Positions 13,923 through 30,159 of a stretch of DNA of 64,000 nucleotides are shown piece by piece (position 1 is the stretch's first letter; each line of letters opens with the position of its first letter). The DNA is from a virus: IMG/VR virus record IMGVR_UViG_3300045988_182866. One strand, given 5' to 3'. Position numbers and translations under genes: made by a program. A model generated the notes under the pieces. That model had not been told where the DNA came from, ran no database searches, and worked only from the letters and a program-made list of their open reading frames with translations.

Positions 13923-14676
13923 TGATCGGAATAATATTTTTATCTGCTGCTATTTGAAGTTCGTTTTCTGTGAACTGTTCATTAAGGTAATTCACCATAT
14001 AAAATGGAGTAGGGACATTATAAGGACTTAATGAAGAAATAAACGGAGTAATATTACTCATATTATTACTCATAATTCTTCCATGGGTAAAATTACTTAA
14101 AATATAATATTTTTTATGAAGTTTAGAATATCCTAGAATAATTTTAATAGAATTGCCTTCATCTACATTTAAAGTATTAAAATTATGAAGATTTCTAATA
14201 TCTAAAATATCAGTATCAATCGTATTTGGTCCATTAAAATAAATTGTTCTTATTGTCGGGCAAGCTGAAAGGTCTAATTTACCAACCGTTCCGGTATAAA
14301 TGAATAATGAAACGGGAGAGCCTTCTTTACATGTAATATAGCAGCTTTTATCAAAAGCTAAATCAAAATTTACCGGAATAGTCCCGGTAATGGGACTATA
14401 TGATGTACTTACTTCAGAATAAGGATATTGTATTATTGTTGTCTTAGTACCTCCAGCCGAATCATCATAGCAACTTATTGTTCCGTTAGATGTCCATTTA
14501 CTCCAAATAAAACGTCCTTTGGGAAAGACCATAGTAGTTGGCTTAAGCATATCACCTAATTCTTCTATTAAGAGAGAAGCTTTAATAGAAGATTCATCTT
14601 GTAAAATCAATATTGGACTTTTCAATCCAAGAGATTTACATTTCTCTAAATCACTAAATTGTACAATATTAGACAT
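13912..14676 (-). CDS. Hypothetical protein with an LRR-like C-terminal segment, 254 aa.
   Basis: KLDLSACPTIRTIYFNGPNTIDTDILDIRNLHNFNTLNVDEG is LRR-like. Overlaps both neighbours by 1-11 nt, suggesting an operon. Confidence 0.35.
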   Translation of the reverse strand: MSNIVQFSDLEKCKSLGLKSPILILQDESSIKASLLIEELGDMLKPTTMVFPKGRFIWSKWTSNGTISCYDDSAGGTKTTIIQYPYSEVSTSYSPITGTIPVNFDLAFDKSCYITCKEGSPVSLFIYTGTVGKLDLSACPTIRTIYFNGPNTIDTDILDIRNLHNFNTLNVDEGNSIKIILGYSKLHKKYYILSNFTHGRIMSNNMSNITPFISSLSPYNVPTPFYMVNYLNEQFTENELQIAADKNIIPINVR

Positions 14677-16534: not shown

Positions 16535-17677
16535 ATGAGTAATCAAGATGTCTGTGAAATTAAGCCCGTAAAGGCATTTTTATCTACAAATCTGAATAAT
16601 AAAACCAAAACATTTAAAGATTTGGCTGATCGAATTATGCGGAGTCTTGGTTATCCTATTGTCAGCGTAGAGCTGCACCGCGATATGGTTTTTGAATTTA
16701 TTTCAATTGCTATTGAATTCTTTTCCAAATATGTCCAGGACCGGGAAATTCTTTTATTTGATTCTAGAATTTACGAAAAAGGAAAAGGAATTAATATCGG
16801 CAAACTTTGTACAATCGCTTCCAAAGCAGCAGCTCAAGAAGGACATGTAAGGCCTGAAAATCTTTTTAATAAGACATATGATAAAACTATTGAACGGTTA
16901 GAACGTGTTTATATTGCCCTGCGGGATATACCGGCTGAAGAGCTACCTTCAACATGGGACAGGCCTGTTAAGAATTGCGAAGTGATTACTGCTGAGCAAT
17001 ATGATGAAATTACTACATATAATTCTTCATTATGTGGATTCTTCAAGATTAGTAAAAAACAAGATTTTACCATTGAAGGAGAAAAAGTAGATAATGTCCC
17101 AACTGAATTTGCCAATGCCTTTGACTATGACTTGATGGATTACAGGCGGTGTGCTCAAGTAATCAGTTATGATGAAAGTTCTAATAGAAGTCCTTATTCA
17201 TTATTTTCTATTCAAAGTGTTCTTTCAGCGCAAGCTTTTTATAGTTACCAGTTTTCAAACCGTGGATTCGACCTTCTTAGTTTTCACTGTCTTCAAGAAT
17301 TTTTGAAAACGCGCCGAAGAGTTCTCGCTTTAGATCGTTCTTTTTACTTTAATCCTGAAACGCAGTATTTTACAATTCTTCCTGAACCTCGATATACCGA
17401 TTCATTTTATGCGGTTCTTCAAGTTTATCTGGAAAAACCGCTTAGAGAGATCTTGCGTGAAATGTGGGTATACAAATATTCTCTTGCTCAAGCTAAAGTA
17501 GCATTGGGATCAATTAGAGGAAAATTTGGTTCTGTTGCTCTTACTGGAGGAGGTCAATTAACAGATGGTCTTGGATTACGGGCAGAAGGCCAAAGAGAAA
17601 TTGAAGAACTTGAAAAAGAACTTATTGACCGAAATGCTTTTGGAGTAAAAGAAAATCCGTTGTTCTTTGTTGGATAA
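16535..17677 (+). CDS. Neck protein, T4 gp13-like (tentative).
   Basis: FKDLADRIMRSLGYPIVSVELHRDMVFEFISIAIEFFSKY resembles the gp13 N-terminus as I recall it ([37 protein letters not shown]). The C-terminal GGGQLTDG...EELEKEL resembles the gp13 C-terminus. From memory only. Confidence 0.5.
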   Translation: MSNQDVCEIKPVKAFLSTNLNNKTKTFKDLADRIMRSLGYPIVSVELHRDMVFEFISIAIEFFSKYVQDREILLFDSRIYEKGKGINIGKLCTIASKAAAQEGHVRPENLFNKTYDKTIERLERVYIALRDIPAEELPSTWDRPVKNCEVITAEQYDEITTYNSSLCGFFKISKKQDFTIEGEKVDNVPTEFANAFDYDLMDYRRCAQVISYDESSNRSPYSLFSIQSVLSAQAFYSYQFSNRGFDLLSFHCLQEFLKTRRRVLALDRSFYFNPETQYFTILPEPRYTDSFYAVLQVYLEKPLREILREMWVYKYSLAQAKVALGSIRGKFGSVALTGGGQLTDGLGLRAEGQREIEELEKELIDRNAFGVKENPLFFVG

Positions 17678-17742: not shown

Positions 17743-18672
17743 TTGTCTATGATAAAAAGACAAAGAAGATTTTTAAACACTGAAATTTTTATAGAATTAG
17801 CAAAACAAATTCATGGAAGCAAATATGATTATTCAAAAGTCAGCTATAAAAATGCTAATACAAATGTTTTAATAATTTGTCCTATTCATGGTTTGTTCAG
17901 TCAAAATCCAAGATCTCACCTAAAAGGGTTTGGATGTGCAAAATGTTCAAATCGAACAGCTAAGACTACTGAAGATTTTATCAAAGAATCAAAGCAGGTT
18001 CATGGAGACAAATATGATTATTCAGAAACAGTTTACGTCAATAATCACACAAATGTAAAAATCTTTTGCAAAAAAGATAAAATATTCTTTATACAAAATC
18101 CTAGAGTTCATCTTCAAGGAACGGGATGTCCCAAGTGTGCAAGAAATCAAAAGTTGACAACTAAGGGATTTATAGAAAGAGCTATAGCTATTCATGGTAA
18201 CAAATATGATTATTCTTCAGTAGTTTATCAATCACATGCCAAAAAGATTATTATAATTTGTCCTATCCATGGGCCTTTCGAGCAAAGAGCAAATGGTCAT
18301 TTGAACGGCAAAGGCTGTTATAAATGTGCAAAGAGTTATAAGCGTTCAAGGGGAGAGATTGAACTTTGTAAATTTATTAAATCAATTTATTCCGGTCAAG
18401 TTTTGGAGAATGACAGAACAGTTATTAAGCCAAAAGAACTAGACATTTATCTTCCTGAATTAAAGTTGGCTCTTGAATATAATGGCGAATATTGGCATGA
18501 TGAAACTAAGAAACGAAAACCGGGTTATCATAAAGAAAAGCAAAAAGCTTGTGAAAAGAAAGGCATTAAATTAATTGAGGTTTGGGATTCAGAATGGCAT
18601 GCAGATAAAGATAGATTTAAAAATCTTATTCAAGAAGTAATAAATTCTATTCAATCACCTTTAAAAATTTAG
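17743..18672 (+). CDS. Homing-endonuclease-like protein with three zinc-ribbon repeats and a C-terminal PD-(D/E)XK (Vsr/DUF559-like) nuclease domain.
   Basis: Three ~55-aa repeats of HGxKYDYSxVxYxNxxTxVxIICPIHGxFxQxPxxHLxGxGCxKC (C, H, C, C ligands), followed by ELDIYLPELKLALEYNGEYWHD...GIKLIEVWDSEW. A paralog lies at 33432-34409. Confidence 0.6.
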   Translation: MSMIKRQRRFLNTEIFIELAKQIHGSKYDYSKVSYKNANTNVLIICPIHGLFSQNPRSHLKGFGCAKCSNRTAKTTEDFIKESKQVHGDKYDYSETVYVNNHTNVKIFCKKDKIFFIQNPRVHLQGTGCPKCARNQKLTTKGFIERAIAIHGNKYDYSSVVYQSHAKKIIIICPIHGPFEQRANGHLNGKGCYKCAKSYKRSRGEIELCKFIKSIYSGQVLENDRTVIKPKELDIYLPELKLALEYNGEYWHDETKKRKPGYHKEKQKACEKKGIKLIEVWDSEWHADKDRFKNLIQEVINSIQSPLKI

Positions 18673-19361: not shown

Positions 19362-20150
19362 ATGAGAATTGCTTTTTTAGCCAGTTTAGCTATTTTTATA
19401 GTTTTGTATATCTATATTGTTTATATTCATGAAAACCTTAAAGATAAAAAAGAAAATAAAGAATTCCTTAAGAAAAGAAATAAACTTTCTTACTGGATTA
19501 GAAATTGCCCAACATTTCTAAATCCTGAAAACTTTTTAGGAATGTTTAATAATATTGATACTAATACCCTTAATCTTCAATATTTTCCTGAAGCAATTGG
19601 CCGATATAATTTTATTGACGAATATAAATTTACATTCAAGGAAATGAAAAATCTTATCAATGATTTTATTCCTTGTTTAATTTATGAAAATATTAAAGGA
19701 GATGAAATTATAGTCATTCCTAATACTGACCCTAATGCTAATCCGGTTATTTTATTTGATATTGTTCCCCGGACAAAATTTGAAGATTTAAACGATATTG
19801 GGTTTCTTCCTGAAACTTTTAGCAACTCTAAAACTTATACTATTAAAACTGACCATGAAATAGACGCTATGGATTTTAGAGTTTTTGCAGAAAAGAGTTT
19901 TCAAACTTATAAAATAGGAGCTGCTTCTATCTTGGTTGATAGAGATAAACTTCAAGAAAAAGGTTTTAATGGTTATGGTGTAATTATTCTTTATCTTTCT
20001 GATAAAATGGCAAAAGAATGTATTGATAATGCTGAAAGGAATTGTTTAGGTTCTTGTATAGATAGACTTTACCGGGAAGGACGATTTAAGGGAATTGTAG
20101 CAACTTATGCAACATTTAATCCTAAAGAATATCACATAAATGAATATTGA
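19362..20150 (+). CDS. Hypothetical protein with an N-terminal transmembrane segment, 262 aa.
   Basis: N-terminal hydrophobic helix (IAFLASLAIFIVLYIYIVYI); no other motif. Confidence 0.35.
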   Translation: MRIAFLASLAIFIVLYIYIVYIHENLKDKKENKEFLKKRNKLSYWIRNCPTFLNPENFLGMFNNIDTNTLNLQYFPEAIGRYNFIDEYKFTFKEMKNLINDFIPCLIYENIKGDEIIVIPNTDPNANPVILFDIVPRTKFEDLNDIGFLPETFSNSKTYTIKTDHEIDAMDFRVFAEKSFQTYKIGAASILVDRDKLQEKGFNGYGVIILYLSDKMAKECIDNAERNCLGSCIDRLYREGRFKGIVATYATFNPKEYHINEY

Positions 20151-20862
20151 ACACACAATAAATGGTAATGTTTATCTTTGTGGAGATCTTCATAAAGATA
20201 TAAATGGCATTTTTCAAAAAATTAAAGAACTTAATATTAGAGATTCCTATATTATTATTCTAGGTGATTGCGAAATAGGATTTTATAAAGAAAAGCCGGC
20301 TAAATTTTATAATTATTTCTCTAAACAGCTTAAATTAAGAAATAATACCGTTTATCTTATCCGAGGAAATCACGATAATCCGGAATATTGGCTAAATCCT
20401 ATAAGATCTGAGGTAGAGGAAAAATGGCCAAATATTATTCATCTTAGAGATAATAGCCTTGTTTCTATTAACGATAAAATTTATTTTATTTGGGGCGGCG
20501 CCGTATCAATTGACCGGGCTATTTTGAAAGAAGGTAGTACTTGGTTTAGATCAGAAAGAACAACGCTTAATATTGCAAAACTTTTATTGTTTAAGGATAT
20601 TAAAATTTTTGGAGTATTGGCACATACTGGTCCACGTCCAGATACTTTAGATGATAAACAATTTAAAAGACGTTGTAAATTTGACAAAAGGTTAATTGAT
20701 GATATTATGGAAGAACAATCAAATATTTGTCAAATTATTAATATGTTAAATCCCGAAGTCTGGTTTAACGGACATTATCATACTTCTTTTGAGAAGACCA
20801 CAACCAATGGGACTAAAGTAACATGTCTTGATATTTTGGAAATAAGAAAACTTATTGCTTAA
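20140..20862 (+). CDS. Calcineurin-like metallophosphoesterase (Ser/Thr phosphatase fold).
   Basis: All canonical MPP motifs are present: GDLH, GDxxxG (ILGDCEIG), GNHDN, AHTGP and GHYH. Confidence 0.65.
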   Translation: MNIEHTINGNVYLCGDLHKDINGIFQKIKELNIRDSYIIILGDCEIGFYKEKPAKFYNYFSKQLKLRNNTVYLIRGNHDNPEYWLNPIRSEVEEKWPNIIHLRDNSLVSINDKIYFIWGGAVSIDRAILKEGSTWFRSERTTLNIAKLLLFKDIKIFGVLAHTGPRPDTLDDKQFKRRCKFDKRLIDDIMEEQSNICQIINMLNPEVWFNGHYHTSFEKTTTNGTKVTCLDILEIRKLIA

Positions 20863-20882: not shown

Positions 20883-21662
20883 ATGACGGATTCAGCTGAA
20901 CCAATTTATCCTGACATTAGACTTTTATATTATTTGTTTGATCCTGAGACAAAAGAATATCTTTGCTTATATTCTCCTGTCCCTAATCCTTATTATAGTC
21001 CTAAGAAAAACCCGGAATCTAAACCTTATATGCCGTTGCCTTCCAATGTAACGGATAAAGAACCATTGGAAACTGCTGAAAATCAAGTTACAGTCTTTGA
21101 CAAGAAGACTCAAAAATGGAGTATTAAGGTTGATTTCAGGAATAAAAAATATTGGGATAAGCAAAGTAAAAAGCTTAATATCATTACCGAAATCGGTAAA
21201 AATCCAGCCAAAACTTGGACGGATATTGAACCCGATGATGACCGAAAAGTTTGGGATGAAGAATCTAATTCTTGGATTTTTCCGATTGAAGTTCTTTATG
21301 AGCTAAAAATTAAAGAAGTTCGAGAGGCTGCCGATAATGCTGCAAATCTCCTTAAATTAAATTATTCTCAAGCAGAATTTGATACTTGGGAGAAACAAGA
21401 AAAAGGAGCCCGGGCTCTTCAAGCAGATCCAGATTCAACAATCCCAGAAGCTGATTTTGTTCGAACATTAGCGGCAACTCGAGGTTTAACTCTTGATGAA
21501 ATGATTACTAAAATTTTAAATGCTGCTGCTCGAGCATTACTTCCAGGGGCTCAAATCATTGGTATTCAACAACGATTAGAGGATGAAGCAAAAGTTGCTT
21601 TAGAGAATAATGATCAAAAGATATTAGAAAATATTAAATTTCCAGATATTAACAGTCTTTGA
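20883..21662 (+). CDS. Hypothetical protein, 259 aa.
   Basis: ORF followed by a strong terminator; tail-fiber-assembly-like features are weak and not asserted. Confidence 0.35.
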   Translation: MTDSAEPIYPDIRLLYYLFDPETKEYLCLYSPVPNPYYSPKKNPESKPYMPLPSNVTDKEPLETAENQVTVFDKKTQKWSIKVDFRNKKYWDKQSKKLNIITEIGKNPAKTWTDIEPDDDRKVWDEESNSWIFPIEVLYELKIKEVREAADNAANLLKLNYSQAEFDTWEKQEKGARALQADPDSTIPEADFVRTLAATRGLTLDEMITKILNAAARALLPGAQIIGIQQRLEDEAKVALENNDQKILENIKFPDINSL

Positions 21663-21665
21663 ATG

Positions 21666-21704
21666 AAATCCCATGGAGATCAATTCTCCATGGGATTTTT
21701 TATT
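21666..21704 (+). terminator. Rho-independent terminator.
   Basis: aaatcccatggaga/tctccatgggattt stem followed by a T-run. Confidence 0.55.
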
Positions 21705-21720
21705 TTAAATAAAAGTCATA

Positions 21721-22566
21721 ATGACTGTCTTAGAATTTGACAAATTTAAAAAGCTGATTACTCCCTGGCCTATTGCCTATTATGGAGAAACTCAAGATCT
21801 TTCTTTAGAGTTTGATCTTCCTACTTGTGCTTGTTTTGAATCAGTTAATAATATTACTTTGAATTTTTATAAGAAAGGCCAAGTTGGAGTTGAAGATAGT
21901 CTTTTAGTTACTTCTGGTGATTTTACATTATTTGACCAAACTACTTGGACTGGACAAGTCTCTTTTACTGGAGAAGCTTTACTTGAATATATTCAATCGG
22001 TGGCTGAAGGGACTGCAGTTATGGATGGAGAATTTATCTTTCAGGTTGCCGGTAATAAAACAATTAAATCTCAAGTTTTTTATGTAAAGATTTATGACTG
22101 CAAGCCTCCTCTTCCTCCGGAGCCAGAATATCCTAACAAGGATGAAATGGATAAAGCTATTGCAGATGCTATTGAAAAGCATAATACTGATTTAAATGCT
22201 CATAAAGATTTATTAATTTCTCGAGTAAATGAAATTGATGTTCTTAATACAACTTCTTTAGAAAATCATTATGTTTATGATGAGATTAATAAAAAATGGA
22301 TTTTTGATACTACTTTAAACGGTAATGTAATTTATATTAATTCTGTAGATTCAACTATCGAATCTTTAATTTTAGATTTCACTAATAATCGAATTGGCGA
22401 TTTAATTAGAATAGTAATCTATAAACCGCTTAATTGTTCTATTTCTTTTATTGCTAAAGACGGTTCTACAGTTTCTTTGGTTGAAGCAGAAAAACCATTA
22501 GATTGGTATATTTTAGAATTCGTACCAATTCGAGATATGGATCAAATTAAAGTTATTAATAAATGA
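21721..22566 (+). CDS. Hypothetical protein, 281 aa.
   Basis: ORF with its own terminator downstream; contains a PPLPPEPEYP linker. Confidence 0.35.
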   Translation: MTVLEFDKFKKLITPWPIAYYGETQDLSLEFDLPTCACFESVNNITLNFYKKGQVGVEDSLLVTSGDFTLFDQTTWTGQVSFTGEALLEYIQSVAEGTAVMDGEFIFQVAGNKTIKSQVFYVKIYDCKPPLPPEPEYPNKDEMDKAIADAIEKHNTDLNAHKDLLISRVNEIDVLNTTSLENHYVYDEINKKWIFDTTLNGNVIYINSVDSTIESLILDFTNNRIGDLIRIVIYKPLNCSISFIAKDGSTVSLVEAEKPLDWYILEFVPIRDMDQIKVINK

Positions 22567-22586: not shown

Positions 22587-22622
22587 AAAACCCGGATAAG
22601 TTTTTCTTATCCGGGTTTTTAT
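22587..22622 (+). terminator. Rho-independent terminator.
   Basis: aaaacccggataag/ttatccgggtttt stem followed by a T-run. Confidence 0.55.
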
Positions 22623-22630
22623 GTTATAAT

Positions 22631-23866
22631 ATGTTTATAATGTGTTTGTCAAAGCAAGTCAGAATTGCAGTTGTAGGACCACCAGATTCTGGTAAATCAA
22701 CTTTCATTTCCAAAGCAGTAAAAATATTAACAGGGAGAACAGTTAATCCTGATGCCTTAATGAAAGAAGTTCATTATTCCGATGGTAAAGACATTTATGG
22801 AAATGACGATACTAGAACTATTAAATGTGCAAAAATCTTTTGCAATTATTTCGGGCTTGAAATTTGTTTTTATGATTGTCCCGGACATAAAGAATATATT
22901 GACCAAATTAAACAGGGAATAAATGCTGCTTCATTTGTAATTTTCATTAGTGATTATAATAGAAAAGAGGAAAGTGAAAGATATTTTGAATTTATTAAGG
23001 AACTTCTTCCGAAAAATAAAATATTATATAAAATAAATTCTCATTATCCAGTCGATAATAAAAATACAAGTCCTAATTGTTATAATTTCGATACTGAATT
23101 AGGTGAGGATAATTTTCGATCTATAATTTTTGATTTAATAAAAGAAATAAGAGATAATGAATCTATAGAGCTTATTGATGTAGAGGCAGAAGCTATTTCT
23201 TTATTAAAGGAAAATATTGATTCAACAAAGCATAATGCTATTTTCTTTTCTGGAGGTAAAGATTCTTTAGTCGGACTTCATCTTATTAAACAAGCAGGAT
23301 TAATTGATAATTTTTCTGTTTATGTTCCCTGGTCAGGATTTGATTTTCCGGAAGTAAATCATATAATCAATATCTATGAGCTTCTCTTTAAGAAAAAGTT
23401 TTTTAAATTTGATAATTCTTTAGGTCTAGACTATCAAAGAAATACTTCTTATGAATTAATGGAAGCCAAAGCTTTAGCTAATGAAAAACTTATTAAAGAA
23501 AAGAATATTGATTTAGTTTCTATTCAATTCAGAGCTTCTGACGAAGGAGTAAGAAGTAAAGACCATTATATTGTTCAAAAAGAAAATCATACTAGATTTT
23601 CTCCTGTTTTTAATTTTACCGAAGAAAATATTTGGCGATATATTCAAAAATATACTCTTCCTGTTTGCGAACTCTATTTTAAAGGTTACCGTAGTTTAGG
23701 AGATTCTTTTGTTACCGAACCATGTATGCCTCATTTTAAAACAGTAGAAGAAATAATCAAATATATATATGAACACCCTCATACTTCTGAGCGAGATGGA
23801 AGAAAAGCACAAGATAATTCGGTTCCTTTTGCTATGGAACATTTGAGGGATAAAGGATTTTTTTGA
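22631..23866 (+). CDS. cysD: Sulfate adenylyltransferase (ATP sulfurylase): a fusion of a CysN-like GTPase domain and the CysD PP-loop domain.
   Basis: N-terminal half: GTPase G1 VGPPDSGKST and G3 DCPGHKEY (EF-Tu/CysN-type). C-terminal half: PP-loop FFSGGKDS, LYFKGYRSLGD, and TSERDGRKAQDNSVPFAMEHLRDKGFF, which tracks the E. coli CysD C-terminus ([26 protein letters not shown]). Confidence 0.7.
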   Translation: MFIMCLSKQVRIAVVGPPDSGKSTFISKAVKILTGRTVNPDALMKEVHYSDGKDIYGNDDTRTIKCAKIFCNYFGLEICFYDCPGHKEYIDQIKQGINAASFVIFISDYNRKEESERYFEFIKELLPKNKILYKINSHYPVDNKNTSPNCYNFDTELGEDNFRSIIFDLIKEIRDNESIELIDVEAEAISLLKENIDSTKHNAIFFSGGKDSLVGLHLIKQAGLIDNFSVYVPWSGFDFPEVNHIINIYELLFKKKFFKFDNSLGLDYQRNTSYELMEAKALANEKLIKEKNIDLVSIQFRASDEGVRSKDHYIVQKENHTRFSPVFNFTEENIWRYIQKYTLPVCELYFKGYRSLGDSFVTEPCMPHFKTVEEIIKYIYEHPHTSERDGRKAQDNSVPFAMEHLRDKGFF

Positions 23867-24312
23867 TGGATGAAGAAAAATTTAGAAAAATAAATCAATT
23901 TAATAAATGCTTTAAAGCTGAAGATTCACCTTCTATCCTTTGTATTTGTGGAGAAAGCGGATCTGGAAAATCGACATTGGCTAAAAAGATTCTTGAATAT
24001 CGGGAATCTAATGGAAATATTCATCCGACAGTTGTTCTTGATGGAGATGGAGTACGACATTTTGTTACCCATGATTTAGGATATTCTGACGAAGATCGAA
24101 TAAAAAATAATGAAATAATTGCAGGAATTGCTTTTTTATTAGTCGTCCAGGGTTTTAATGTAATTATTTCTACTGTTCGGGCCAATGTCGCCTATAACAT
24201 TCTAAGTCAATATTGGAATCATAATATTCATTGTTTTGTTTGTGACAAATACACCAGAGATACAGAAGAATATAAAGAAGCATATAATAATTTTATTAAA
24301 AATGAAATCTGA
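23863..24312 (+). CDS. cysC: Adenylylsulfate (APS) kinase.
   Basis: ICGESGSGKSTLAKKILEY...VVLDGDGVRHFVTHDLGYSDEDRIKNNEIIAGIAFLLVVQGFNVIISTV aligns with E. coli CysC (LSGSGKSTVA...[33 protein letters not shown]...VLTAFISP). Confidence 0.8.
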   Translation: MMDEEKFRKINQFNKCFKAEDSPSILCICGESGSGKSTLAKKILEYRESNGNIHPTVVLDGDGVRHFVTHDLGYSDEDRIKNNEIIAGIAFLLVVQGFNVIISTVRANVAYNILSQYWNHNIHCFVCDKYTRDTEEYKEAYNNFIKNEI

Positions 24313-25135
24313 ATTAGTTCAAGGACCAATTAAATTTCCTATTGACATTGACCTGGAGAAAATGATTATAACTTCTCCAAATATGAATTTAGAAATAAAA
24401 ATTTATCATGAAGATGAACAAGGATTTTATGTAGATTATCAAAATCAAGTTTACCGTTTAGAATATAATCCAATTTCCAAAAATTATTGGTTTATGTATT
24501 TGAACAAAACACCATTTATTAGAGGATGCTGGTTTGTTCGAGCTAATATTTGTCATAAATTAAAATTTATTTCTTTTATTATCAGCAAAAATGGTTGTTC
24601 TTCTATTTTAAAAACTTCAATGGTTCATGACGGAACATATGATACTATTCAGGATCATTCTTTTATCTGGAATAATCCGCAATATTGTTTCGAAAAGAAT
24701 GTTATTCAAAATATAGCAAAATGCCATGCTTATCCTGACTATATTAAGTTTGTAGTTTTAGAAGATCCATTTAAAAGATTTCTAAGATGGCTGAATTGGT
24801 CCTGGAAAAACAAATATAACAAATACTATAATTTTAATTTATCAAAAGAGGATTTTATTAAAGAACATCTTTGGTCTCTTCCTTATATTACAAGAGAATT
24901 AGTTTGCTGCGATGAACATGTAATTCAACAGGAAAAATATTTTGAACATATCAGAAAAGAAGGATTTGAACCATTAGTTGTTCAATTATCTGATTTACCG
25001 ATTTTCTTTAAAAATCAATTTGGAGTTGAGTTAATTAAAAATAATGTTTCTTCTCCTTCTGAACGTATTTTTACAAAGGAAGATTTTACTGAAGATCAAC
25101 TAAAGGAAATTTATAAGTTTTTGAATATCAAATGA
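24302..25135 (+). CDS. Putative carbohydrate-type (Sulfotransfer_2-like) PAPS-dependent sulfotransferase. The start is taken at the ATG at 24302; the ORF-track start at 24236 overlaps cysC.
   Basis: Candidate 5'-phosphosulfate-binding motif FISFIISKNGCSSILK (PKxGS/T-type) and 3'-phosphate-binding motif VVLEDPFKRFLRW (RDPxxR-type). The gene sits directly downstream of the PAPS-synthesis genes. Confidence 0.5.
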   Translation: MKSELVQGPIKFPIDIDLEKMIITSPNMNLEIKIYHEDEQGFYVDYQNQVYRLEYNPISKNYWFMYLNKTPFIRGCWFVRANICHKLKFISFIISKNGCSSILKTSMVHDGTYDTIQDHSFIWNNPQYCFEKNVIQNIAKCHAYPDYIKFVVLEDPFKRFLRWLNWSWKNKYNKYYNFNLSKEDFIKEHLWSLPYITRELVCCDEHVIQQEKYFEHIRKEGFEPLVVQLSDLPIFFKNQFGVELIKNNVSSPSERIFTKEDFTEDQLKEIYKFLNIK

Positions 25136-25878
25136 AAAAGTTTTTTGTAAACATTTTTACATATAAAGAAGATGAAGAGATTGTAAAATACAGTGCTCTT
25201 TCAGCCAAATATGTATTAGGCGATGATGTTGAAGTAAATGTTATTGATGATAATAAACATCCCATTTCAGAAGAAAAGATTAAAGAATTAAATGAACTTG
25301 GCATTTTTTATCGTCAATCCACTTTTGACAGAAAACATAATTTAAACGGTAAAGAATGTGTCGTTGGTATTTTAGAAGAAATAAAAAAATCTACTAAAGG
25401 GAGGGCCGGAGTATCAATTAAGCTTGATTCAGATACAATGATTGCACATCGGGAGATATTTGATAAGTTTTATGATACTGAAAGCTGTATGTTTGCTGCT
25501 TCTCATCGGCCAGGCAGTATTTTTTCTGGAATATGCTATCTTATTAAAAATGATATTTTAGATAAGATGATTAAAATGGCTAATGACTGTGATATTCATG
25601 AAACGTCAGCCCCCGAAGATATGACCATTGGATGCTTGGCAACTATTTGTTCTATGCCTAATAGCATTTATATTATGCCTGAATGGAATCCCAATAAAAA
25701 AGAGGATGATGGACTTTGTACTGCCTGGAATTATGATTGTGATTTAAAATATATTGAAAAATATTATAAACTTTTCTTTATTGTTACATTTGGAAACTGG
25801 TTTACGGTCAAAGGCAATACCAAAGCTTGCCGAAATAAACCTATGGAGCTCTTCCTTGATCAAATCTTAAATATTTGA
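25132..25878 (+). CDS. Putative GT-A fold glycosyltransferase.
   Basis: An N-terminal Rossmann-like beta-alpha segment, then VIDDNKHP (the 'DD' region) and KLDSDT (DxD-like). Weak. Confidence 0.35.
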   Translation: MKKFFVNIFTYKEDEEIVKYSALSAKYVLGDDVEVNVIDDNKHPISEEKIKELNELGIFYRQSTFDRKHNLNGKECVVGILEEIKKSTKGRAGVSIKLDSDTMIAHREIFDKFYDTESCMFAASHRPGSIFSGICYLIKNDILDKMIKMANDCDIHETSAPEDMTIGCLATICSMPNSIYIMPEWNPNKKEDDGLCTAWNYDCDLKYIEKYYKLFFIVTFGNWFTVKGNTKACRNKPMELFLDQILNI

Positions 25879-28262
25879 ACATCATGCAAAAGTCCGGTAT
25901 TAGTGACAAGACAGGGAAATCTTATATCAATGGAATTTCAGTAACAAACAGTACCATAACTGTTACTGAAGCTACCTCTTTAAATTTCACCATTGGAGGA
26001 CCAATTACTACTACTGTACAAGGAAGTGAAGAAGCATTAATTTCCTTCAATCTTGATGCAGTAAAAAGCAGGGAAGCTTTAGGATTAGGTACTGCTGCTC
26101 TTATTAATACCGGTACAGCATCTGGACAAATTCCTGTTTTAGACGCCCGGGGTAAATTACCTGAGTCTGTCATTGGAGATATTGCCCTATATGATAAGTT
26201 TGATATAGCTTCTGCTGATAATATAAATGATATTGTAATATTTATTAATGGCATTACTACTGGAATTACTCCTAAACAAGGAGATATGATTTTTGTTCTA
26301 GGAGGAAATGTCCAAGGAACCTATTGGATTACAGTCACTAAAACTCCGGGAACTTATACTGCGGATGATATTTCTGGAATTACTACACCGTCTGGAACCA
26401 TTAGTTCTATTACCTTTTTAGGAACAAATTATACTCCTGTCAATGGTATTATTACTCTCCCGGCAAATATTGGCTGGAGTTCTTTAACTGGAATTCCTGC
26501 AGCTTCTGTATCGGCTTCAGGTATTGTTAAATTAAATGATAATACAAATTCTACTTCTACTACTGAAGCAGCAACTGCAAATGCTGTTAAGAAAGTTCAA
26601 GATTTTGCTAGTACCAAAATTTCTGGTATTTGGTTCGAAACTAACCAAGGATTAACTTCAGAACGAAATAGTTTTACTATATTTGGAACTGGCCCAATTT
26701 ATATTGTAGGGAGTGATGCTGGAGATAAATCTCTTATATCAGTAAATTTAGATACTGCAAGAGTTAAAGACTCTTTAAATATTCAATCTATCGCCCCAGC
26801 AGGACCTTATCCTCCGACTATTCCTGAAACCTACGGAACAGGAGCTGCGCCTGAACTTTTAGGTAAACTTGATAGAAGCTTCATGCCAAGAAATATTATT
26901 GGTTTTACATCTTCTTCTAGTTTGCCGCCAGTAAATCCTCCGTCTGATTTTATTCAAGGTTTTGCTTTTACAGCACAGGATAATAATGGTGAGGAAACTC
27001 CTGGTTTTAGTGTTTCTGTTTTTGAAAAGTATTATTCAACTGGAGAAATATGGAAAGGTATTAATTATTTCCTCAATTCTTCTTTAACAGCAACATCCGG
27101 ACCTGACCCAGTTATTCCAGCAACTGGGGCTGATGGTAAATTAGATGCTTCATTTATTCCAGATAGTGTGAGCGGAGGAATTGGCATTGTTAATTCTAGT
27201 AATCCGGGTACAACACTAACTGCTAAAACTTTAAGAATCGGAGCACTAGACGGGTTAGGCGTATCTATTGCACCTCTTGGCCCGAATAGTTCAGAAATTA
27301 ATGTTTTTTATGGATTAGAAGAAACTTCATTTAAATCTTATCTGACTAATACTATTGGCATTAAAACTGCTGCTTATCAAAATACAGGAACTACAAATGG
27401 AACAATCCCTTTAATCGGTGCTAATGATAAATTACCAGCAAGTATTATTCCAGATGAAATTGGCGGAAATTTTAGTTCCTTTACTATTAATAATGGATAT
27501 GAAGCTACTCAAAGTATAAGCTCTAATCCTAATCAAATTAAAATTTGGAACTCTCCATTTTTTATTGGACCTCATGAAGCCACTGATTTAGTTAATGAAT
27601 TATATCTTAATAATGAGGGTGAAGTTACTTTATCTCAGCGTTTTACTGATAGGGCCGCCCTTCGTTATATTACTTGTGTTGAAGATTCAGGTAATTATCG
27701 CTTTACTACATATTATTGTGGCCCCTTATTGATATTTGAATCATTTTCAGCTTATACTAAAGGACCATTTTTAAAGAATTCTACTAATTTTAATTATACT
27801 GGTACTCATCCCGGTGAACTAAGTAATAACGCTTATACTAAAATACAAATAGATCCTTATTTTGCTTTAGCAAGAAGTAATTATATTATAAATAATACAA
27901 CTAGTGGAAGTTTAATTGATATTTATACAGATCTTTTAACTAGAAAATATTATTTTCGGCCAAGCTCATTATCTTCAACAAATACTCTTATCGTTAATCT
28001 TTATATTGATGAAATAACATTACAAAATTACCATATTGATAATACTCTTATTTTAGACCCCAGGAACCTTTCAGTTGCTCCTCAAAATATTCAAATATTA
28101 TTGCCGAATGAAACTACAGGAAACTATAAGCTGTTTATAGACCAGGGCGATGTTGGGACATTAACGAATACTCATCTGTATAATATTAGTATTGGTATTA
28201 TTCGACCAACGGAAAGTCCAGCTCTAATAATGGTAAAATATTCTCAGTTTGTACCAGTTTAA
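25875..28262 (+). CDS. Tail fiber protein, 795 aa.
   Basis: Repeated fiber motifs: GTAALINTGTASGQIPVLDARGKLPESVIGD, GKLDRSFMPRNIIG, ADGKLDASFIPDSVSGG and TNGTIPLIGANDKLPASIIPDEIGG. Gly/Thr/Ser-rich. Confidence 0.65.
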   Translation: MNIMQKSGISDKTGKSYINGISVTNSTITVTEATSLNFTIGGPITTTVQGSEEALISFNLDAVKSREALGLGTAALINTGTASGQIPVLDARGKLPESVIGDIALYDKFDIASADNINDIVIFINGITTGITPKQGDMIFVLGGNVQGTYWITVTKTPGTYTADDISGITTPSGTISSITFLGTNYTPVNGIITLPANIGWSSLTGIPAASVSASGIVKLNDNTNSTSTTEAATANAVKKVQDFASTKISGIWFETNQGLTSERNSFTIFGTGPIYIVGSDAGDKSLISVNLDTARVKDSLNIQSIAPAGPYPPTIPETYGTGAAPELLGKLDRSFMPRNIIGFTSSSSLPPVNPPSDFIQGFAFTAQDNNGEETPGFSVSVFEKYYSTGEIWKGINYFLNSSLTATSGPDPVIPATGADGKLDASFIPDSVSGGIGIVNSSNPGTTLTAKTLRIGALDGLGVSIAPLGPNSSEINVFYGLEETSFKSYLTNTIGIKTAAYQNTGTTNGTIPLIGANDKLPASIIPDEIGGNFSSFTINNGYEATQSISSNPNQIKIWNSPFFIGPHEATDLVNELYLNNEGEVTLSQRFTDRAALRYITCVEDSGNYRFTTYYCGPLLIFESFSAYTKGPFLKNSTNFNYTGTHPGELSNNAYTKIQIDPYFALARSNYIINNTTSGSLIDIYTDLLTRKYYFRPSSLSSTNTLIVNLYIDEITLQNYHIDNTLILDPRNLSVAPQNIQILLPNETTGNYKLFIDQGDVGTLTNTHLYNISIGIIRPTESPALIMVKYSQFVPV

Positions 28263-28264
28263 AA

Positions 28265-28720
28265 ATGGGAGAATTAGGATTAGCTAGAAATAAACGATAT
28301 AATCAAGGTTATTTTTATCCAAAAAATAAACATAAGTTTATCGGAGAATATGCAATTTACCGTTCAGGTTTAGAGTTAAAGTATTTTCAATTTTTGGATA
28401 ATAATCCCAAGTGTATCAAATGGAATTCAGAAGGAGTAAAAATTCCTTATTTCTGGGAAGGAGATAATAAGTGGCATACTTATTATATCGATTTGGCTGC
28501 TTCTTTTAAAAAAGAAAATAAGATAGAAACTTTTTTAATTGAAATTAAGCCTTACCGGCAAACTATAGAGCCTGAAGCAACAAAGCGAAAAAGGAAAAAG
28601 ACTTTATTAACTGAACAAATAACATTCAGTCAAAATCAAAGTAAATGGAAAGCCGCTTCTGAATTTGCATCCAAAAACGGCTTAAAATTTATTATTCTTA
28701 CTGAAAAAGATATTGGTTAA
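28265..28720 (+). CDS. PD-(D/E)XK nuclease-fold protein (TnsA-N/endonuclease-like).
   Basis: YRSGLELKYFQFLDNNPKCIKWNSEGVKIPY...YYIDL...ETFLIEIKP matches the TnsA-N-type pattern (SxLE...W.yE..IPY...Y.PDF...EVKP). Confidence 0.4.
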   Translation: MGELGLARNKRYNQGYFYPKNKHKFIGEYAIYRSGLELKYFQFLDNNPKCIKWNSEGVKIPYFWEGDNKWHTYYIDLAASFKKENKIETFLIEIKPYRQTIEPEATKRKRKKTLLTEQITFSQNQSKWKAASEFASKNGLKFIILTEKDIG

Positions 28721-29445: not shown

Positions 29446-30159
29446 ATGGTTTCAACAACCCCTTATAAATTAATTTGTGAAATGCCTGATCCTTCCCGAA
29501 TGGATCCTTTACAAATATTATATGAAGAAGAAAGTCTTCACAAAGAACGGGCTTTATATTTGACTGGTCCTTATCTTGGTTCTGAAATTATTAATAGAAA
29601 TAATCGTTTATATCCAGCTGAAGAACTTCGCCGCGAAGTTAATCGCTATACTGAAGAAAAGATTAAATTTGGGCGTGCACTTGGAGAATTAAATCACCCC
29701 GAATCTGCTTCAGTTGATCTTGGAGCCGCTTGCCATTTGGTTGTTGAATTAAAGGAAGATAATAATGTTTGGTACGGCAAGTCTAAAGTTTTAGTTGGTA
29801 CGCCTAAAGGCGATCTTTTGAAATCTCTCCTTAATAATGGCGTTCAAGTTGGTATGTCTTCTCGCTGTCTTGGTCAGCTGACAGAAACATCTGAAGGATA
29901 TTCAAGAGTTTCAAATTTGCGCATGGTCGCCATAGATGCGGTTTCGGATCCAAGTTTTTCGAGCGCCTATGTAGACGGTATTTTAGAGTCTGCCCAGTTT
30001 GTTTGTGAATCTGACGGTTCTATTCGAATGGAAAAACTTTACGATGATACTAGTAAGAAATTTGCGAATCTTCCAGTTGGAGACCGAAACGACTATATTA
30101 AACGATCAGTGATTGACTTCCTTAAGAGCTTTAACGAAATTACTACAAATCGTAAATAA
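29446..30159 (+). CDS. Prohead core protein protease (T4 gp21-like).
   Basis: IINRNNRLYP, ALGELNHPES and GMSSRCLGQLTETSEGYSRVSN...AIDAV align with T4 gp21 (VNRNKRLYP, ALGELNHPPR, GVSSRGLGSLTDTNEGYRIVN...GVDAV). Confidence 0.8.
   Translation: MVSTTPYKLICEMPDPSRMDPLQILYEEESLHKERALYLTGPYLGSEIINRNNRLYPAEELRREVNRYTEEKIKFGRALGELNHPESASVDLGAACHLVVELKEDNNVWYGKSKVLVGTPKGDLLKSLLNNGVQVGMSSRCLGQLTETSEGYSRVSNLRMVAIDAVSDPSFSSAYVDGILESAQFVCESDGSIRMEKLYDDTSKKFANLPVGDRNDYIKRSVIDFLKSFNEITTNRK

What the first reader, a model, noticed from the sequence alone, without database searches (positions are those of the whole stretch)
22631..25878. Phage-encoded PAPS biosynthesis (CysN-G/CysD fusion and CysC) plus a carbohydrate-type sulfotransferase and a glycosyltransferase, directly upstream of a tail fiber gene
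Four consecutive, tightly packed + genes form what looks like a complete sulfate-activation and transfer pathway.
- An ATP sulfurylase: a GTPase domain (GPPDSGKST, DCPGHKEY) fused to a CysD PP-loop domain (SGGKDS, LYFKGYRSLGD, TSERDGRKAQD...MEHLRDKGFF).
- An APS kinase, which aligns almost motif for motif with E. coli CysC.
- A protein with candidate 5'-PSB and 3'-PB sulfotransferase motifs (FIISKNGCSSILK, LEDPFKRF).
- A GT-A-like glycosyltransferase.

The block ends at a 795-aa tail fiber gene. It lies in accessory DNA inserted between the portal and the head-maturation genes.

The possible targets are host surface polysaccharide, giving a sulfated seroconversion or superinfection-exclusion effect; the phage's own fiber or glycans; or DNA. 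The domain order of the fusion, with the G-domain N-terminal to CysD, is the reverse of the usual cysD-cysN operon order. The calcineurin-like phosphatase two genes upstream (20140-20862) might remove the PAP by-product, but that is speculative.
Basis: partly seen in the sequence, partly recalled or inferred. Interest (0 to 1): 0.85.

Follow-up and report, generated by a model that had tools for sequence, protein, structure and literature searches.

The report
Phage sulfation cassette beside tail fibre
A common ~200-kb T4-like phage, probably from an anaerobic or gut habitat, carries a compact four-gene set that appears to activate sulfate and attach it to a sugar; no cultured phage in the collection searched has this set, and what gets sulfated is still unknown.

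Summary
Four tightly packed + strand genes lie at 22631-25878.

- **Gene 1** fuses a stripped EF-Tu/EF1A-type G domain to a CysD-like PP-loop domain.
- **Gene 2** is an APS-kinase homologue of 148 aa.
- **Gene 3** is a divergent Sulfotransfer_2-family protein.
- **Gene 4** is a GT-A-fold glycosyltransferase.

A strong terminator sits just upstream. None lies before the downstream tail-fibre gene.

The fused gene 1 defines about 94 metagenomic protein clusters. In 8 distinct loci it sits beside a sulfotransferase (6-7 of 8), a short APS kinase (5-6 of 8) and glycosyltransferases (6 of 8). That makes this a conserved phage sulfation cassette, similar in logic to NodP/NodQ/NodH.

- The kinase lacks the whole lid and C-terminal third, which published work calls essential.
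- The G domain has no NKxD motif and no domains II/III.
- The sulfotransferase's 3'-phosphate-binding motif is non-canonical.
- The PAP-phosphatase idea has no support.

The acceptor is unknown. My order of preference is a virion or fibre glycan, then a host envelope glycan.

I rate it a new variant of a known kind, of moderate to high interest. All functions are inferred, not assayed.

The parts
22587..22619 (+). Intrinsic terminator (14-bp stem, T-run) that closes the upstream gene and marks the 5' boundary of the cassette's transcription unit
   Evidence: stem-loop AAAACCCGGATAAG...CTTATCCGGGTTTT followed by T-run; sequence. No comparable terminator lies between 22620 and 28720.
22631..23155 (+). 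Gene 1, N-terminal domain (aa 1-~175): a minimal EF-Tu/EF1A-type G domain. G1 is GPPDSGKS (aa 16-23), the switch-I-like motif is DTRTIK (aa 60-65), and G3 is DCPGH (aa 82-86). There is no NKxD (its place holds S-H-Y-P, aa 137-140) and no domains II/III.
   Evidence: Pfam GTP_EFTU 8.3e-08, 32.5 bits against a cut-off of 26.5. The family alignment shows G1/G2/G3 invariant or nearly invariant and G4 degenerate. Profile hits to eRF3/EF1A/EF-Tu G domains at 1e-5 to 1e-3.
23162..23866 (+). Gene 1, C-terminal domain (aa ~178-411): a CysD-like PP-loop ATP pyrophosphatase and putative sulfate adenylyltransferase. Motifs: SGGKDS (aa 207-212), RASDEGVRSKD, GYRSLGD, and the C-terminal tail TSERDGRKAQD...MEHLRDKGFF.
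   Evidence: Pfam PAPS_reduct 2.1e-17. NCBIfam CysD is the best hit. The family profile scores CysD 1zun_A at 6.3e-15, against 2.9e-10 for PAPS reductases, and the tail aligns to the CysD tail. There is no C-terminal reductase Cys motif.
23866..24312 (+). Gene 2: a lid-less 'mini' APS-kinase homologue (148 aa). P-loop GESGSGKS, LDGDG and the DLGYSDEDRxxN helix are present. The protein ends just after beta4.
   Evidence: Pfam APS_kinase 1.3e-15, but only profile positions 3-82/152. PDB APS kinases align only to residues 25-126. Relatives are about 100-130 aa and end at the same point.
24302..25135 (+). Gene 3: a divergent Sulfotransfer_2-family sulfotransferase (277 aa from ATG 24302). The 5'-PSB is ISKNGCSS (K96), the putative base motif is CDEHVIQQ (H206, Q210), and the 3'-PB is the non-canonical VLEDPFKRFLR. 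There is also an N-terminal ~80-aa domain of unknown role, predicted beta-rich only by a low-confidence model.
   Evidence: The gene caller in identical contigs also starts it at the ATG (277 aa).
25132..25878 (+). Gene 4: a GT-A-fold glycosyltransferase (248 aa) with invariant DD (aa 39-40) and a DxD-type motif D99-S-D101
25884..28262 (+). Tail-fibre gene (792 aa), immediately downstream with no intervening terminator. It is context and a candidate acceptor or partner.
   Evidence: Pfam Phage_fiber_2, PHROG tail-fibre families, terminator scan.
20883..21662 (+). Tail-fibre-assembly-like gene, two genes upstream (context: the cassette lies inside a fibre or host-recognition cluster)
   Evidence: phrog_105 'tail fiber assembly' 4.7e-16. 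It has its own terminator at 21665-21699.

Best explanation
This is a self-contained phage sulfation cassette that is probably transcribed with the adjacent tail-fibre gene.

1. **APS synthesis.** The CysD-like PP-loop domain of gene 1 condenses sulfate with ATP to give APS. The reaction is pulled by NTP hydrolysis in the fused, minimal EF1A/CysN-type G domain. This would be a one-polypeptide version of the CysD-CysN ATP sulfurylase.
2. **PAPS synthesis.** The lid-less CysC homologue phosphorylates APS to PAPS, possibly only when docked on a partner.
3. **Sulfate transfer.** The Sulfotransfer_2-type enzyme moves the sulfate to a sugar hydroxyl on a glycan to which the GT-A glycosyltransferase adds a sugar (in relatives, several GTs).

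All four proteins are soluble, so the acceptor must be reachable in the cytoplasm.

My preferred acceptor (about 40%) is a glycan on the phage's own fibre or virion proteins. Second (about 35%) is a lipid-linked envelope glycan precursor of the host.

Shown here: homology, motifs, fold and conserved gene neighbourhood. Inferred: every enzymatic step, the nucleotide used by the G domain, the activity of the truncated kinase, and the acceptor.
For: **Gene identities.**

**The fusion is a real family.** About 94 clusters of 343-465 aa share the architecture, with invariant G1/G3, PP-loop and CysD-type tail.

**Conserved neighbourhood across 8 distinct loci**:
- window: fusion + kinase + ST + GT
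- L003: ST + fusion + orthologous GT
- L008: ST + fusion
- L009: GT92::ST fusion protein + fusion + kinase + more GTs
- L043: GT11 + fusion + kinase + 2 GT2
- L044: weak kinase-like ORF + fusion + ST
- L045: GTs + fusion + kinase + 2 ST
- L001: 792-aa multi-GT + fusion + kinase

**No reduction genes.** No cysH/cysIJ-type reductase turned up in the Pfam listings of any locus.

**Transcription.** A terminator lies upstream and none lies before the fibre.

**Cytoplasmic location.** None of the four proteins has a TM segment.

**Fibre or late-gene link.**
- The cassette sits between a fibre-assembly-like gene and a fibre gene.
- The GT's only cultured-phage homologues sit between the two largest genes downstream of the major head protein gene in Akkermansia phage Chantilly, a position consistent with the tail module.
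- Relatives carry in-frame TAG (= Gln) codons inside cassette genes. A survey of gut phages links such recoding to late and lytic genes (bioRxiv 10.1101/2021.08.26.457843).
Against: - The kinase lacks the lid. In M. tuberculosis CysC the lid supplies the transition-state Lys and an adenine-contacting Arg, and its closure is reported as essential (PMC4373884).
- L003 and L008 show no kinase next to the ST and fusion. PAPS may therefore not be obligatory, or the host may supply the kinase.
- Gene 1 scores far below NCBIfam's CysD cut-off (82 against 195 bits). It also lacks two CysD-specific insertions.
- The G domain lacks the guanine-specificity motif.
- The ST itself is below Pfam's threshold, its 3'-PB lacks the canonical Arg and Ser, and its structure could not be modelled (pLDDT 39.7).
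- Adjacency to a fibre is not conserved in relatives.
- There is no biochemical evidence at all.
Confidence: 0.68

Rival explanations
1. Same chemistry, different purpose. The cassette sulfates a host envelope glycan (O-antigen, capsule or teichoic-acid precursor on the cytoplasmic face) during infection. The changed cell surface would block superinfection or stop progeny from adsorbing to debris.
For: GT families next to the fusion in relatives are of the LPS/CPS-building type: GT11, GT2, GT92 and Caps_synth/Gly_transf_sug. The same proposal has been made for GTs in the host-recognition clusters of marine T4-like phages (PMC7029224). The enzymes are soluble and cytoplasmic, which is compatible with lipid-linked precursors.
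Against: - The phage looks T4-like and lytic: gp20/gp21/gp23/gp13/gp15 are present, and no integrase was seen among the window genes scanned. Classical seroconversion therefore does not apply.
- No flippase, polymerase or membrane-associated component is present in the cassette.
- The gene position and probable co-transcription point towards the fibre.
Confidence: 0.3
2. An auxiliary metabolic gene set that boosts the host's assimilatory sulfate reduction (cysteine supply) during infection. This is how viral cysC/cysD/cysN genes are usually catalogued.
For: Viral cysD, cysN, cysC and cysNC have been reported and read as assimilatory-sulfate AMGs (bioRxiv 10.1101/2021.01.05.425418). PAPS is an intermediate of that pathway.
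Against: The genes are consistently paired with sulfotransferases and glycosyltransferases. They are never paired with cysH/cysIJ/cysK in the 8 loci examined. The enzymes are highly derived, phage-specific forms rather than recent host acquisitions.
Confidence: 0.06
3. Not sulfur chemistry at all. The PP-loop/G-domain fusion adenylylates some other substrate, such as a sugar phosphate, a nucleotide or a nucleic acid. The truncated P-loop protein is then a different small kinase or an NTP-binding adaptor, and gene 3 uses a different donor.
For: - Every membership score is sub-threshold against curated equivalog models.
- The kinase lacks the lid.
- The ST lacks the canonical 3'-PB residues.
- The PP-loop domain is about as compact as PAPS reductases and FAD synthetases.
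Against: - Three independent sulfate-pathway homologies co-occur repeatedly.
- The CysD-type C-terminal tail and the APS-binding helix motif of CysC are retained.
- Distant ST relatives have the full PAPS-binding motifs.
Confidence: 0.1
4. The cassette hypermodifies phage DNA with a sulfated sugar on a modified base.
For: From general knowledge, T4-like phages commonly glycosylate DNA. The enzymes are cytoplasmic.
Against: - From general knowledge, the T4 DNA glucosyltransferases are GT-B fold. Gene 4 is GT-A.
- Sulfotransfer_2 enzymes are carbohydrate and glycoconjugate sulfotransferases.
- No base-hydroxymethylase or related gene is adjacent.
- The cassette's position is in the fibre cluster.
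Confidence: 0.03

Closest known systems
Rhizobial NodP/NodQ/NodH and, more generally, bacterial CysD-CysN(C) + CysC + carbohydrate sulfotransferase pathways
   Same: The logic is the same: a dedicated ATP sulfurylase (PP-loop subunit plus G protein), an APS kinase and a sulfotransferase are encoded together to sulfate a glycoconjugate rather than to make cysteine. The homologies are to the same superfamilies.
   Different: - The G domain is fused N-terminally to the CysD-like domain. The fusion reported in the literature read here is CysN-CysC (PMC4342817).
- The G domain is cut down to about 175 aa, with no domains II/III and no NKxD.
- The kinase has no lid.
- The ST belongs to a divergent Sulfotransfer_2 clade.
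- The system is on a lytic-type phage and was not found in 185,579 species genomes by pattern search.
CysD-CysN ATP sulfurylase complex (PDB 1ZUN)
   Same: It is the best structural-database relative of the PP-loop domain (6.3e-15). The SxGxDS, R-x-D-E-x-x-S-K, W-x-Y-I and C-terminal ER-x-GR...GYF elements all align. The G domain is of the EF1A/eRF3/EF-Tu class from which CysN derives.
   Different: - It is a single chain rather than a heterodimer.
- It lacks the ~25-aa and ~35-aa CysD insertions, so GYRSLGD follows LYFKG directly, as in PAPS reductases.
- It scores 82 bits against a 195-bit family cut-off.
APS kinase CysC (e.g. M. tuberculosis CysC domain 4BZP, A. thaliana APK 3UIE)
   Same: The P-loop, the LDGD motif and the APS-binding helix pair are conserved, with E-values of 1e-10 to 1e-7.
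   Different: It ends after beta4. The 30-residue lid (with the catalytic Lys and adenine-contacting Arg), beta5 and the last helix are all absent. This holds consistently across phage relatives of about 100-130 aa.
Viral cysC/cysD/cysN 'AMGs' and isolated phage sulfotransferases
   Same: Viral homologues of the sulfate-activation genes have been catalogued. Phage sulfotransferases (Sulfotransfer_3) have been noted in marine phages, with the remark that their function 'remains unclear' (PMC10580990).
   Different: Here the activation genes, a sulfotransferase and GTs form one conserved operon-like unit, which points to glycan sulfation rather than assimilation. The full-text searches found no paper describing such a cassette. 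The protein architectures also differ. Other phage CysC hits are roughly full-length (ORFs of about 180 aa and up to 239 aa) and lack the cassette.
Phage-encoded virion glycosylation (mycobacteriophage GTs next to structural genes)
   Same: GT genes are embedded in the structural or fibre region of a phage genome. The concept is cited.
   Different: No sulfation is known in that system, and here the acceptor has not been shown. The resemblance is positional only.

Membership tests
CysD (sulfate adenylyltransferase subunit 2) | PP-loop SxGxDS ATP-pyrophosphatase motif | tested here: met
   FSGGKDS is invariant in 28 family members and aligns to YSIGKDS of 1zun_A.
CysD (sulfate adenylyltransferase subunit 2) | Closer to CysD than to PAPS/APS reductases or FAD synthetases | tested here: met
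   Against the PDB, the profile scores CysD at 6.3e-15 (58 bits) and the best reductase at 2.9e-10 (43 bits). CysD models are the top three NCBIfam hits.
CysD (sulfate adenylyltransferase subunit 2) | Reaches the curated family score | tested here: not met
   NF003587 scores 82.3 bits against a cut-off of 195. TIGR02039 scores 58 against 396.6.
CysD (sulfate adenylyltransferase subunit 2) | CysD-type C-terminal tail (T-x-ER-x-GR ... M-E-x-x-[KR]-x-x-G-[YF]-F) and no reductase Cys motif | tested here: met
   The tail aligns to residues 269-325 of 1zun_A. It is also present in canonical CysD P0100/P0104 and in the minimal 228-aa relatives. The tail has no invariant Cys.
CysD (sulfate adenylyltransferase subunit 2) | Sulfate-dependent APS formation | not testable with these tools
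   Needs an enzyme assay.
CysN / translational-type GTPase | G1 (GxxxxGK[ST]), switch-I Thr, G3 (DxPGH) | tested here: met
   GxPDxGKS, DTRTIK and DxPGH are invariant or nearly invariant. Pfam GTP_EFTU scores 32.5 bits against a cut-off of 26.5.
CysN / translational-type GTPase | G4 NKxD guanine-specificity motif | tested here: not met
   The equivalent position reads [ST]-[HR]-[SAY]-x with no conserved Asp. The window protein has S-H-Y-P.
CysN / translational-type GTPase | Beta-barrel domains II and III | tested here: not met
   Only about 175 residues precede the PP-loop domain. Matches to EF1A/eRF3 stop at about profile position 161.
APS kinase (CysC) | P-loop, LDGD motif, APS-binding helices | tested here: met
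   GESGSGKS, VLDGDGVRH and DLGYSDEDRIKNN align to PDB APS kinases. Pfam scores 58.2 bits against a cut-off of 21.1.
APS kinase (CysC) | Lid region between beta4 and beta5 carrying the catalytic Lys/Arg, plus beta5 and the C-terminal helix | tested here: not met
   The Pfam match stops at profile position 82/152. PDB alignments end at query residue 126 or earlier. Relatives end about 10 residues after the IISTVRA strand-helix. The role of the lid is described in PMC4373884.
APS kinase (CysC) | Reaches the curated equivalog score | tested here: not met
   TIGR00455 scores 62.1 bits against a cut-off of 138.7.
Sulfotransfer_2 (carbohydrate-type PAPS sulfotransferases) | Sequence membership | tested here: inconclusive
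   The ORF itself scores 18.8-18.9 bits against a cut-off of 22. However, 27 of 52 profile-search relatives hit PF03567 (best 9.9e-12) and no competing family recurs.
Sulfotransfer_2 (carbohydrate-type PAPS sulfotransferases) | 5'-phosphosulfate-binding loop with Lys (xPKxGxT/S) | tested here: met
   I-[SP]-K-N-G-C-S-S is conserved, with K96 present in the window protein.
Sulfotransfer_2 (carbohydrate-type PAPS sulfotransferases) | 3'-phosphate-binding motif (R-D-P-x-x-R-x-x-S) | tested here: not met
   The window clade has V-L-E-D-P-F-K-R-F-L-R: the first Arg is lost and the Ser is replaced by Arg. Distant relatives keep RDPxxRFxS.
Sulfotransfer_2 (carbohydrate-type PAPS sulfotransferases) | Conserved His as candidate catalytic base | tested here: met
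   D-x-H-x-x-x-Q, with H206 and Q210 conserved in at least 90% of 52 sequences. Its catalytic role is an inference.
Sulfotransfer_2 (carbohydrate-type PAPS sulfotransferases) | Sulfotransferase fold | tested here: inconclusive
   The AF2 model was unusable (mean pLDDT 39.7). The profile search against PDB sequences gave nothing.
GT-A glycosyltransferases | GT-A (nucleotide-diphospho-sugar transferase) fold | tested here: met
GT-A glycosyltransferases | DxD metal/nucleotide-sugar motif | tested here: met
   D99-S-D101 and D39-D40 are invariant across six homologues, including an Akkermansia phage protein.
GT-A glycosyltransferases | Assignment to a CAZy/Pfam GT family | tested here: not met
   No Pfam, NCBIfam or PHROG hit. 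The L003 orthologue gives only a weak Glycos_transf_2 hit at E 0.0068.

The most novel reading that the evidence does not exclude
A widespread ~200-kb phage, probably from an anaerobic or gut habitat, makes its own activated sulfate with a previously undescribed minimal machinery: a single-chain G-domain/CysD sulfurylase plus a lid-less APS kinase that works only in complex. It uses that sulfate to decorate its own tail fibres or virion with a sulfated glycan. That would be the first sulfated phage particle. If the habitat is the gut, the glycan might mimic or bind sulfated mucin or glycosaminoglycans, or tune receptor binding.
Probability: 0.25. Interest if true: 0.88.

Novelty: new variant of a known kind. 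Interest (0 to 1): 0.68.

Why it matters
Phage cysC/cysD/cysN genes are normally booked as 'assimilatory sulfate AMGs', and phage sulfotransferases as 'function unclear'. This locus and its relatives argue that at least one large group of phages carries a complete, dedicated glycan-sulfation module, and that reading changes how such genes should be interpreted in viromes.

It also offers two enzymological curiosities. One is a one-chain G-protein-coupled ATP sulfurylase with a minimal G domain that lacks the guanine-specificity motif. The other is an APS kinase without the lid thought to be essential. Both are small and easy to express.

If the product ends up on virions or on the infected cell surface, it is a new kind of phage-host or phage-mucosa interface. 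The closest protein cluster has 567 member sequences, and one variant alone occurs on 172 contigs.

Tried and rejected
- **AF2 model of the sulfotransferase.** With only 3 sequences it failed (pLDDT 39.7), so no fold search was run on it. A profile of 52 relatives against PDB sequences gave only a chance hit.
- **afdb50 fold library.** Unavailable.
- **Cultured-phage searches.** DNA and tblastn searches of 50,697 phage records found no cassette. The fusion hit only CysH-like genes of Clostridium and Methanosarcina viruses, and the ST hit nothing. The CysC hits examined (LR756500, MT838634) are roughly full-length kinases with no fusion or ST nearby.
- **IMG/VR.** It held only one true fusion locus, L009. 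The other 33 loci are ordinary PAPS-reductase-like genes.
- **Genome scans.** Two scans of 185,579 species genomes found no fusion. They gave one 41-aa ST-like fragment at the end of a Clostridia MAG contig that otherwise carries housekeeping genes. I judged it uninformative.
- **Metallophos as PAP phosphatase.** Rejected. The Metallophos protein near the cassette in L001 shares only the GNHD motif with the window's.
- **Conserved fibre partner.** Rejected. The large protein downstream in L003 is unrelated to the window fibre.
- **T4 late-promoter motif TATAAATA.** Not enriched: 5 found against 16 expected. The sigma-70 scan was uninformative in this AT-rich DNA.
- **Defence-system membership.** PADLOC gave only a 16.9-bit BrxP (PAPS-reductase domain) hit and generic P-loop hits.
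- **tRNAs.** None in the window.

Full report
**1. What is there**

The window is AT-rich DNA (about 30% GC) of a distant T4-like myophage.
- The portal gp20 is at 10699-12507 and the sheath stabiliser gp15 at 9474-10583.
- A gp13-like neck gene lies at 16535-17677, the prohead protease at 29446-30159, and gp23 at 31380-33290, about 30% identical to cyanophage capsids.
- An anaerobic ribonucleotide reductase is present. From its function, this suggests an anaerobic host.

Near-identical contigs exist in ENA assemblies. The closest protein cluster has 567 members. One variant occurs on 172 contigs, the longest being about 200-269 kb. This is therefore a recurrent phage of about 200 kb.

Between 22631 and 25878 there are four + strand ORFs with overlapping or abutting junctions. 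A 14-bp-stem terminator at 22587-22619 precedes them. No comparable terminator follows until after the fibre gene (25884-28262) and the TnsA-like gene (28265-28720). Two genes upstream lies a tail-fibre-assembly-like gene (phrog_105). The cassette thus sits inside a fibre or host-recognition cluster and is probably co-transcribed with the fibre.

**2. Gene 1 (411 aa)**

*Domain matches.* Pfam finds GTP_EFTU (aa 10-110) and PAPS_reduct (aa 203-363), both above threshold. The three best NCBIfam hits are CysD models, but they score far below the family cut-offs.

*The family.* A database search returned about 94 clusters of 343-465 aa with the same two-domain architecture. All are from metagenomes and none is informatively named.

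*Conserved motifs.* An alignment of 28 members shows these elements invariant or nearly invariant:
- GxPDxGKS, DTRTIK and DxPGH in the G domain
- FSGGKDS, RASDEGVRSKD and GYRSLGD in the PP-loop domain
- the tail ERDGRKxQD...MEKLRNxGFF

*Relationship to CysD.* A profile of this alignment hits CysD (1zun_A) best, at 6.3e-15 against 2.9e-10 for PAPS reductases. The tail aligns to CysD's own C-terminal tail. There is no reductase-type C-terminal cysteine motif.

*The G domain.* Its best matches are eRF3/EF1A/EF-Tu G domains, the lineage from which CysN is derived (PMC4342817).

*Differences from CysD-CysN.*
- The G domain is only about 175 aa.
- It has no domains II/III, and the NKxD position reads [ST]-[HR]-x-x.
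- The PP-loop domain lacks two CysD insertions.

*Nearest relatives outside the family.* The closest non-fused relatives are 226-229-aa stand-alone proteins with the same tail, followed by canonical CysD at 22-24% identity.

*Distribution.* A pattern-plus-tblastn scan of 185,579 species genomes found no relative. IMG/VR held only one.

**3. Gene 2 (148 aa)**

It is an APS-kinase homologue (Pfam 1.3e-15). The P-loop, LDGD and APS-binding helices align to solved APS kinases. The match stops at profile position 82 of 152, and the protein ends shortly after beta4.

The homologues next to the fusion in L001, L009, L043 and L045 are about 100-130 aa and end at the same place. This is a conserved lid-less form, not a truncation artefact.

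In M. tuberculosis CysC the lid between beta4 and beta5 carries the Lys that stabilises the transition state and an Arg that contacts the adenine. [quoted passage not shown]

Whether the phage protein is active alone is therefore doubtful. Retention of the P-loop and LDGD argues that it still transfers phosphate, perhaps in a complex (inference).

**4. Gene 3 (277 aa from ATG 24302)**

Alone it gives only a sub-threshold Sulfotransfer_2 hit, and it has few close homologues.

An exhaustive profile search found 61 representatives. Of the 52 that I aligned, 27 hit Sulfotransfer_2 (best 9.9e-12) and no other family recurs.

The alignment shows:
- a conserved 5'-PSB loop (I-[SP]-K-N-G-C-S-S)
- a near-invariant D-x-H-x-x-x-Q
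- in distant members, the canonical 3'-PB R-D-P-x-x-R-F-x-S

The window clade has L-E-D-P-F-K-R-F-L-R instead, with the first Arg lost and the Ser replaced by Arg.

The AF2 model failed. Family membership therefore rests on transitive sequence evidence and on context.

**5. Gene 4 (248 aa)**

DD and D-S-D motifs are invariant.

Its only homologues in cultured phages are in three Akkermansia muciniphila phages. In Chantilly, the one examined, the homologue lies between the two largest genes downstream of the major head protein gene. This is consistent with the tail module, though neither neighbour gave a PHROG hit.

**6. Conserved neighbourhood**

I scanned eight distinct loci with local HMMs built from these families, supplemented by Pfam.

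| Locus | Gene content around the fusion |
|---|---|
| window | fusion + kinase + ST + GT |
| L003 (169-225-kb T4-like contigs) | ST + fusion + orthologous GT; no kinase within 8 kb |
| L008 | ST + fusion |
| L009 | a GT92::ST fusion protein + fusion + kinase + further GTs |
| L043 | GT11 protein + fusion + kinase + two GT2 |
| L044 | weak kinase-like ORF + fusion + ST |
| L045 | GTs + fusion + (inserted resolvase/TnpB-like element) + kinase + two STs |
| L001 (362-kb contig) | 792-aa multi-GT + fusion + kinase |

No sulfate-reduction genes appear in any of them. This pattern is the strongest argument that the genes work together in sulfating a glycan.

**7. Mechanism and target**

Best reading:
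1. A single-chain, G-protein-coupled ATP sulfurylase makes APS.
2. The mini-kinase makes PAPS.
3. The ST sulfates a sugar on a glycan that the GT helps to build.

None of the four proteins has a TM segment, so the acceptor must be cytoplasmic or on the inner face of the membrane.

Evidence pointing towards the virion or fibre:
- the cassette's position and probable co-transcription with the fibre
- the placement of the GT homologue in Akkermansia phage Chantilly
- in-frame TAG = Gln codons inside cassette genes of L043 and L044, a recoding that has been linked to late and lytic genes

Evidence pointing towards host envelope glycans:
- LPS/CPS-type GT families in relatives
- the precedent proposal for marine T4-like phages

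Fibre adjacency is not conserved across relatives. I cannot decide between the two targets. I lean slightly towards the virion.

**8. Comparison and novelty**

The logic is that of NodP/NodQ/NodH or CysDN + CysC + sulfotransferase.

Viral cysC/D/N genes have been catalogued as assimilatory AMGs, in a paper that does not mention sulfotransferases. Phage sulfotransferases have been noted with 'unclear' function. Four full-text searches found no description of a phage cassette combining activation, transfer and GT genes.

The domain architectures (G-domain::CysD fusion, lid-less CysC) are, as far as I could check, undescribed. I rate this a new variant of a known kind. Everything functional is inferred from sequence.

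Noticed in passing
L043 10718, 10742, 10865; L044 11615, 11873: The cassette genes of two related phages contain in-frame TAG codons at positions where the family has Gln (for example 'LI*YRASDEG' against consensus IQYRASDEG, and 'D*H' against DQH/DEH). Those phages therefore use TAG->Gln recoding. The window itself reads cleanly in the standard code.
   Followed up: partly
window 38951-41824 (+): The anaerobic ribonucleotide reductase NrdD (957 aa) carries an intein (Pfam Intein_splicing, aa 393-670) between its two halves.
   Followed up: no
L047 (Akkermansia phage Chantilly) 6013-6750; also Chambord and Moulinsart: The only cultured-phage homologues of the GT-A gene (26-28% identity, DD and DSD motifs kept) are in Akkermansia muciniphila phages. 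In Chantilly the gene lies between a 722-aa and an 834-aa protein downstream of the major head protein gene. Neither neighbour gave a PHROG hit.
   Followed up: partly
L045 11239-13132 (-): A resolvase plus an SSO2105_N (TnpB-like) gene pair is inserted between the fusion gene and the APS-kinase gene, splitting the cassette in that phage.
   Followed up: no
window 28265-28720 (+); L003 15089-15511; L044 18570-19043: A small TnsA-like endonuclease gene recurs in these phages. In the window and L003 it lies close to the prohead-protease gene. In the window it directly follows the fibre gene with no terminator.
   Followed up: no
window 17743-18672 (+) and about 33.4 kb; L003 300-1503: Several paralogous DUF723 genes are scattered among the structural genes. 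The window copy at 17743-18672 has repeated Cys-containing segments.
   Followed up: no
window about 12.7-13.0 kb (-) (= L006 82-399): A 105-aa product with a weak precomputed Pfam CRISPR_Cas2 hit lies just downstream of the portal gene.
   Followed up: no
window 14676-16532 (-); L009 5360-6601 and 12731-13519; L003 4335-6421: Leucine-rich-repeat (BspA-like), PA14 or DUF285 proteins flank the cassette in several phages. Such domains are typical of adhesins, so the cassette tends to sit in a surface-interaction or host-recognition neighbourhood.
   Followed up: no
L043 13570-14898; L044 17665-18531: Choloylglycine-hydrolase-family (CBAH/AAT) genes are present in two related phage contigs. From general knowledge this family includes bile-salt hydrolases, which would fit a gut habitat.
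   Followed up: no
window 21721-22566 (+): A 281-aa ORF lies between the fibre-assembly-like gene and the cassette. It has terminators on both sides and no hit in Pfam, PHROGs or PADLOC. It is conserved in the near-identical contigs.
   Followed up: no
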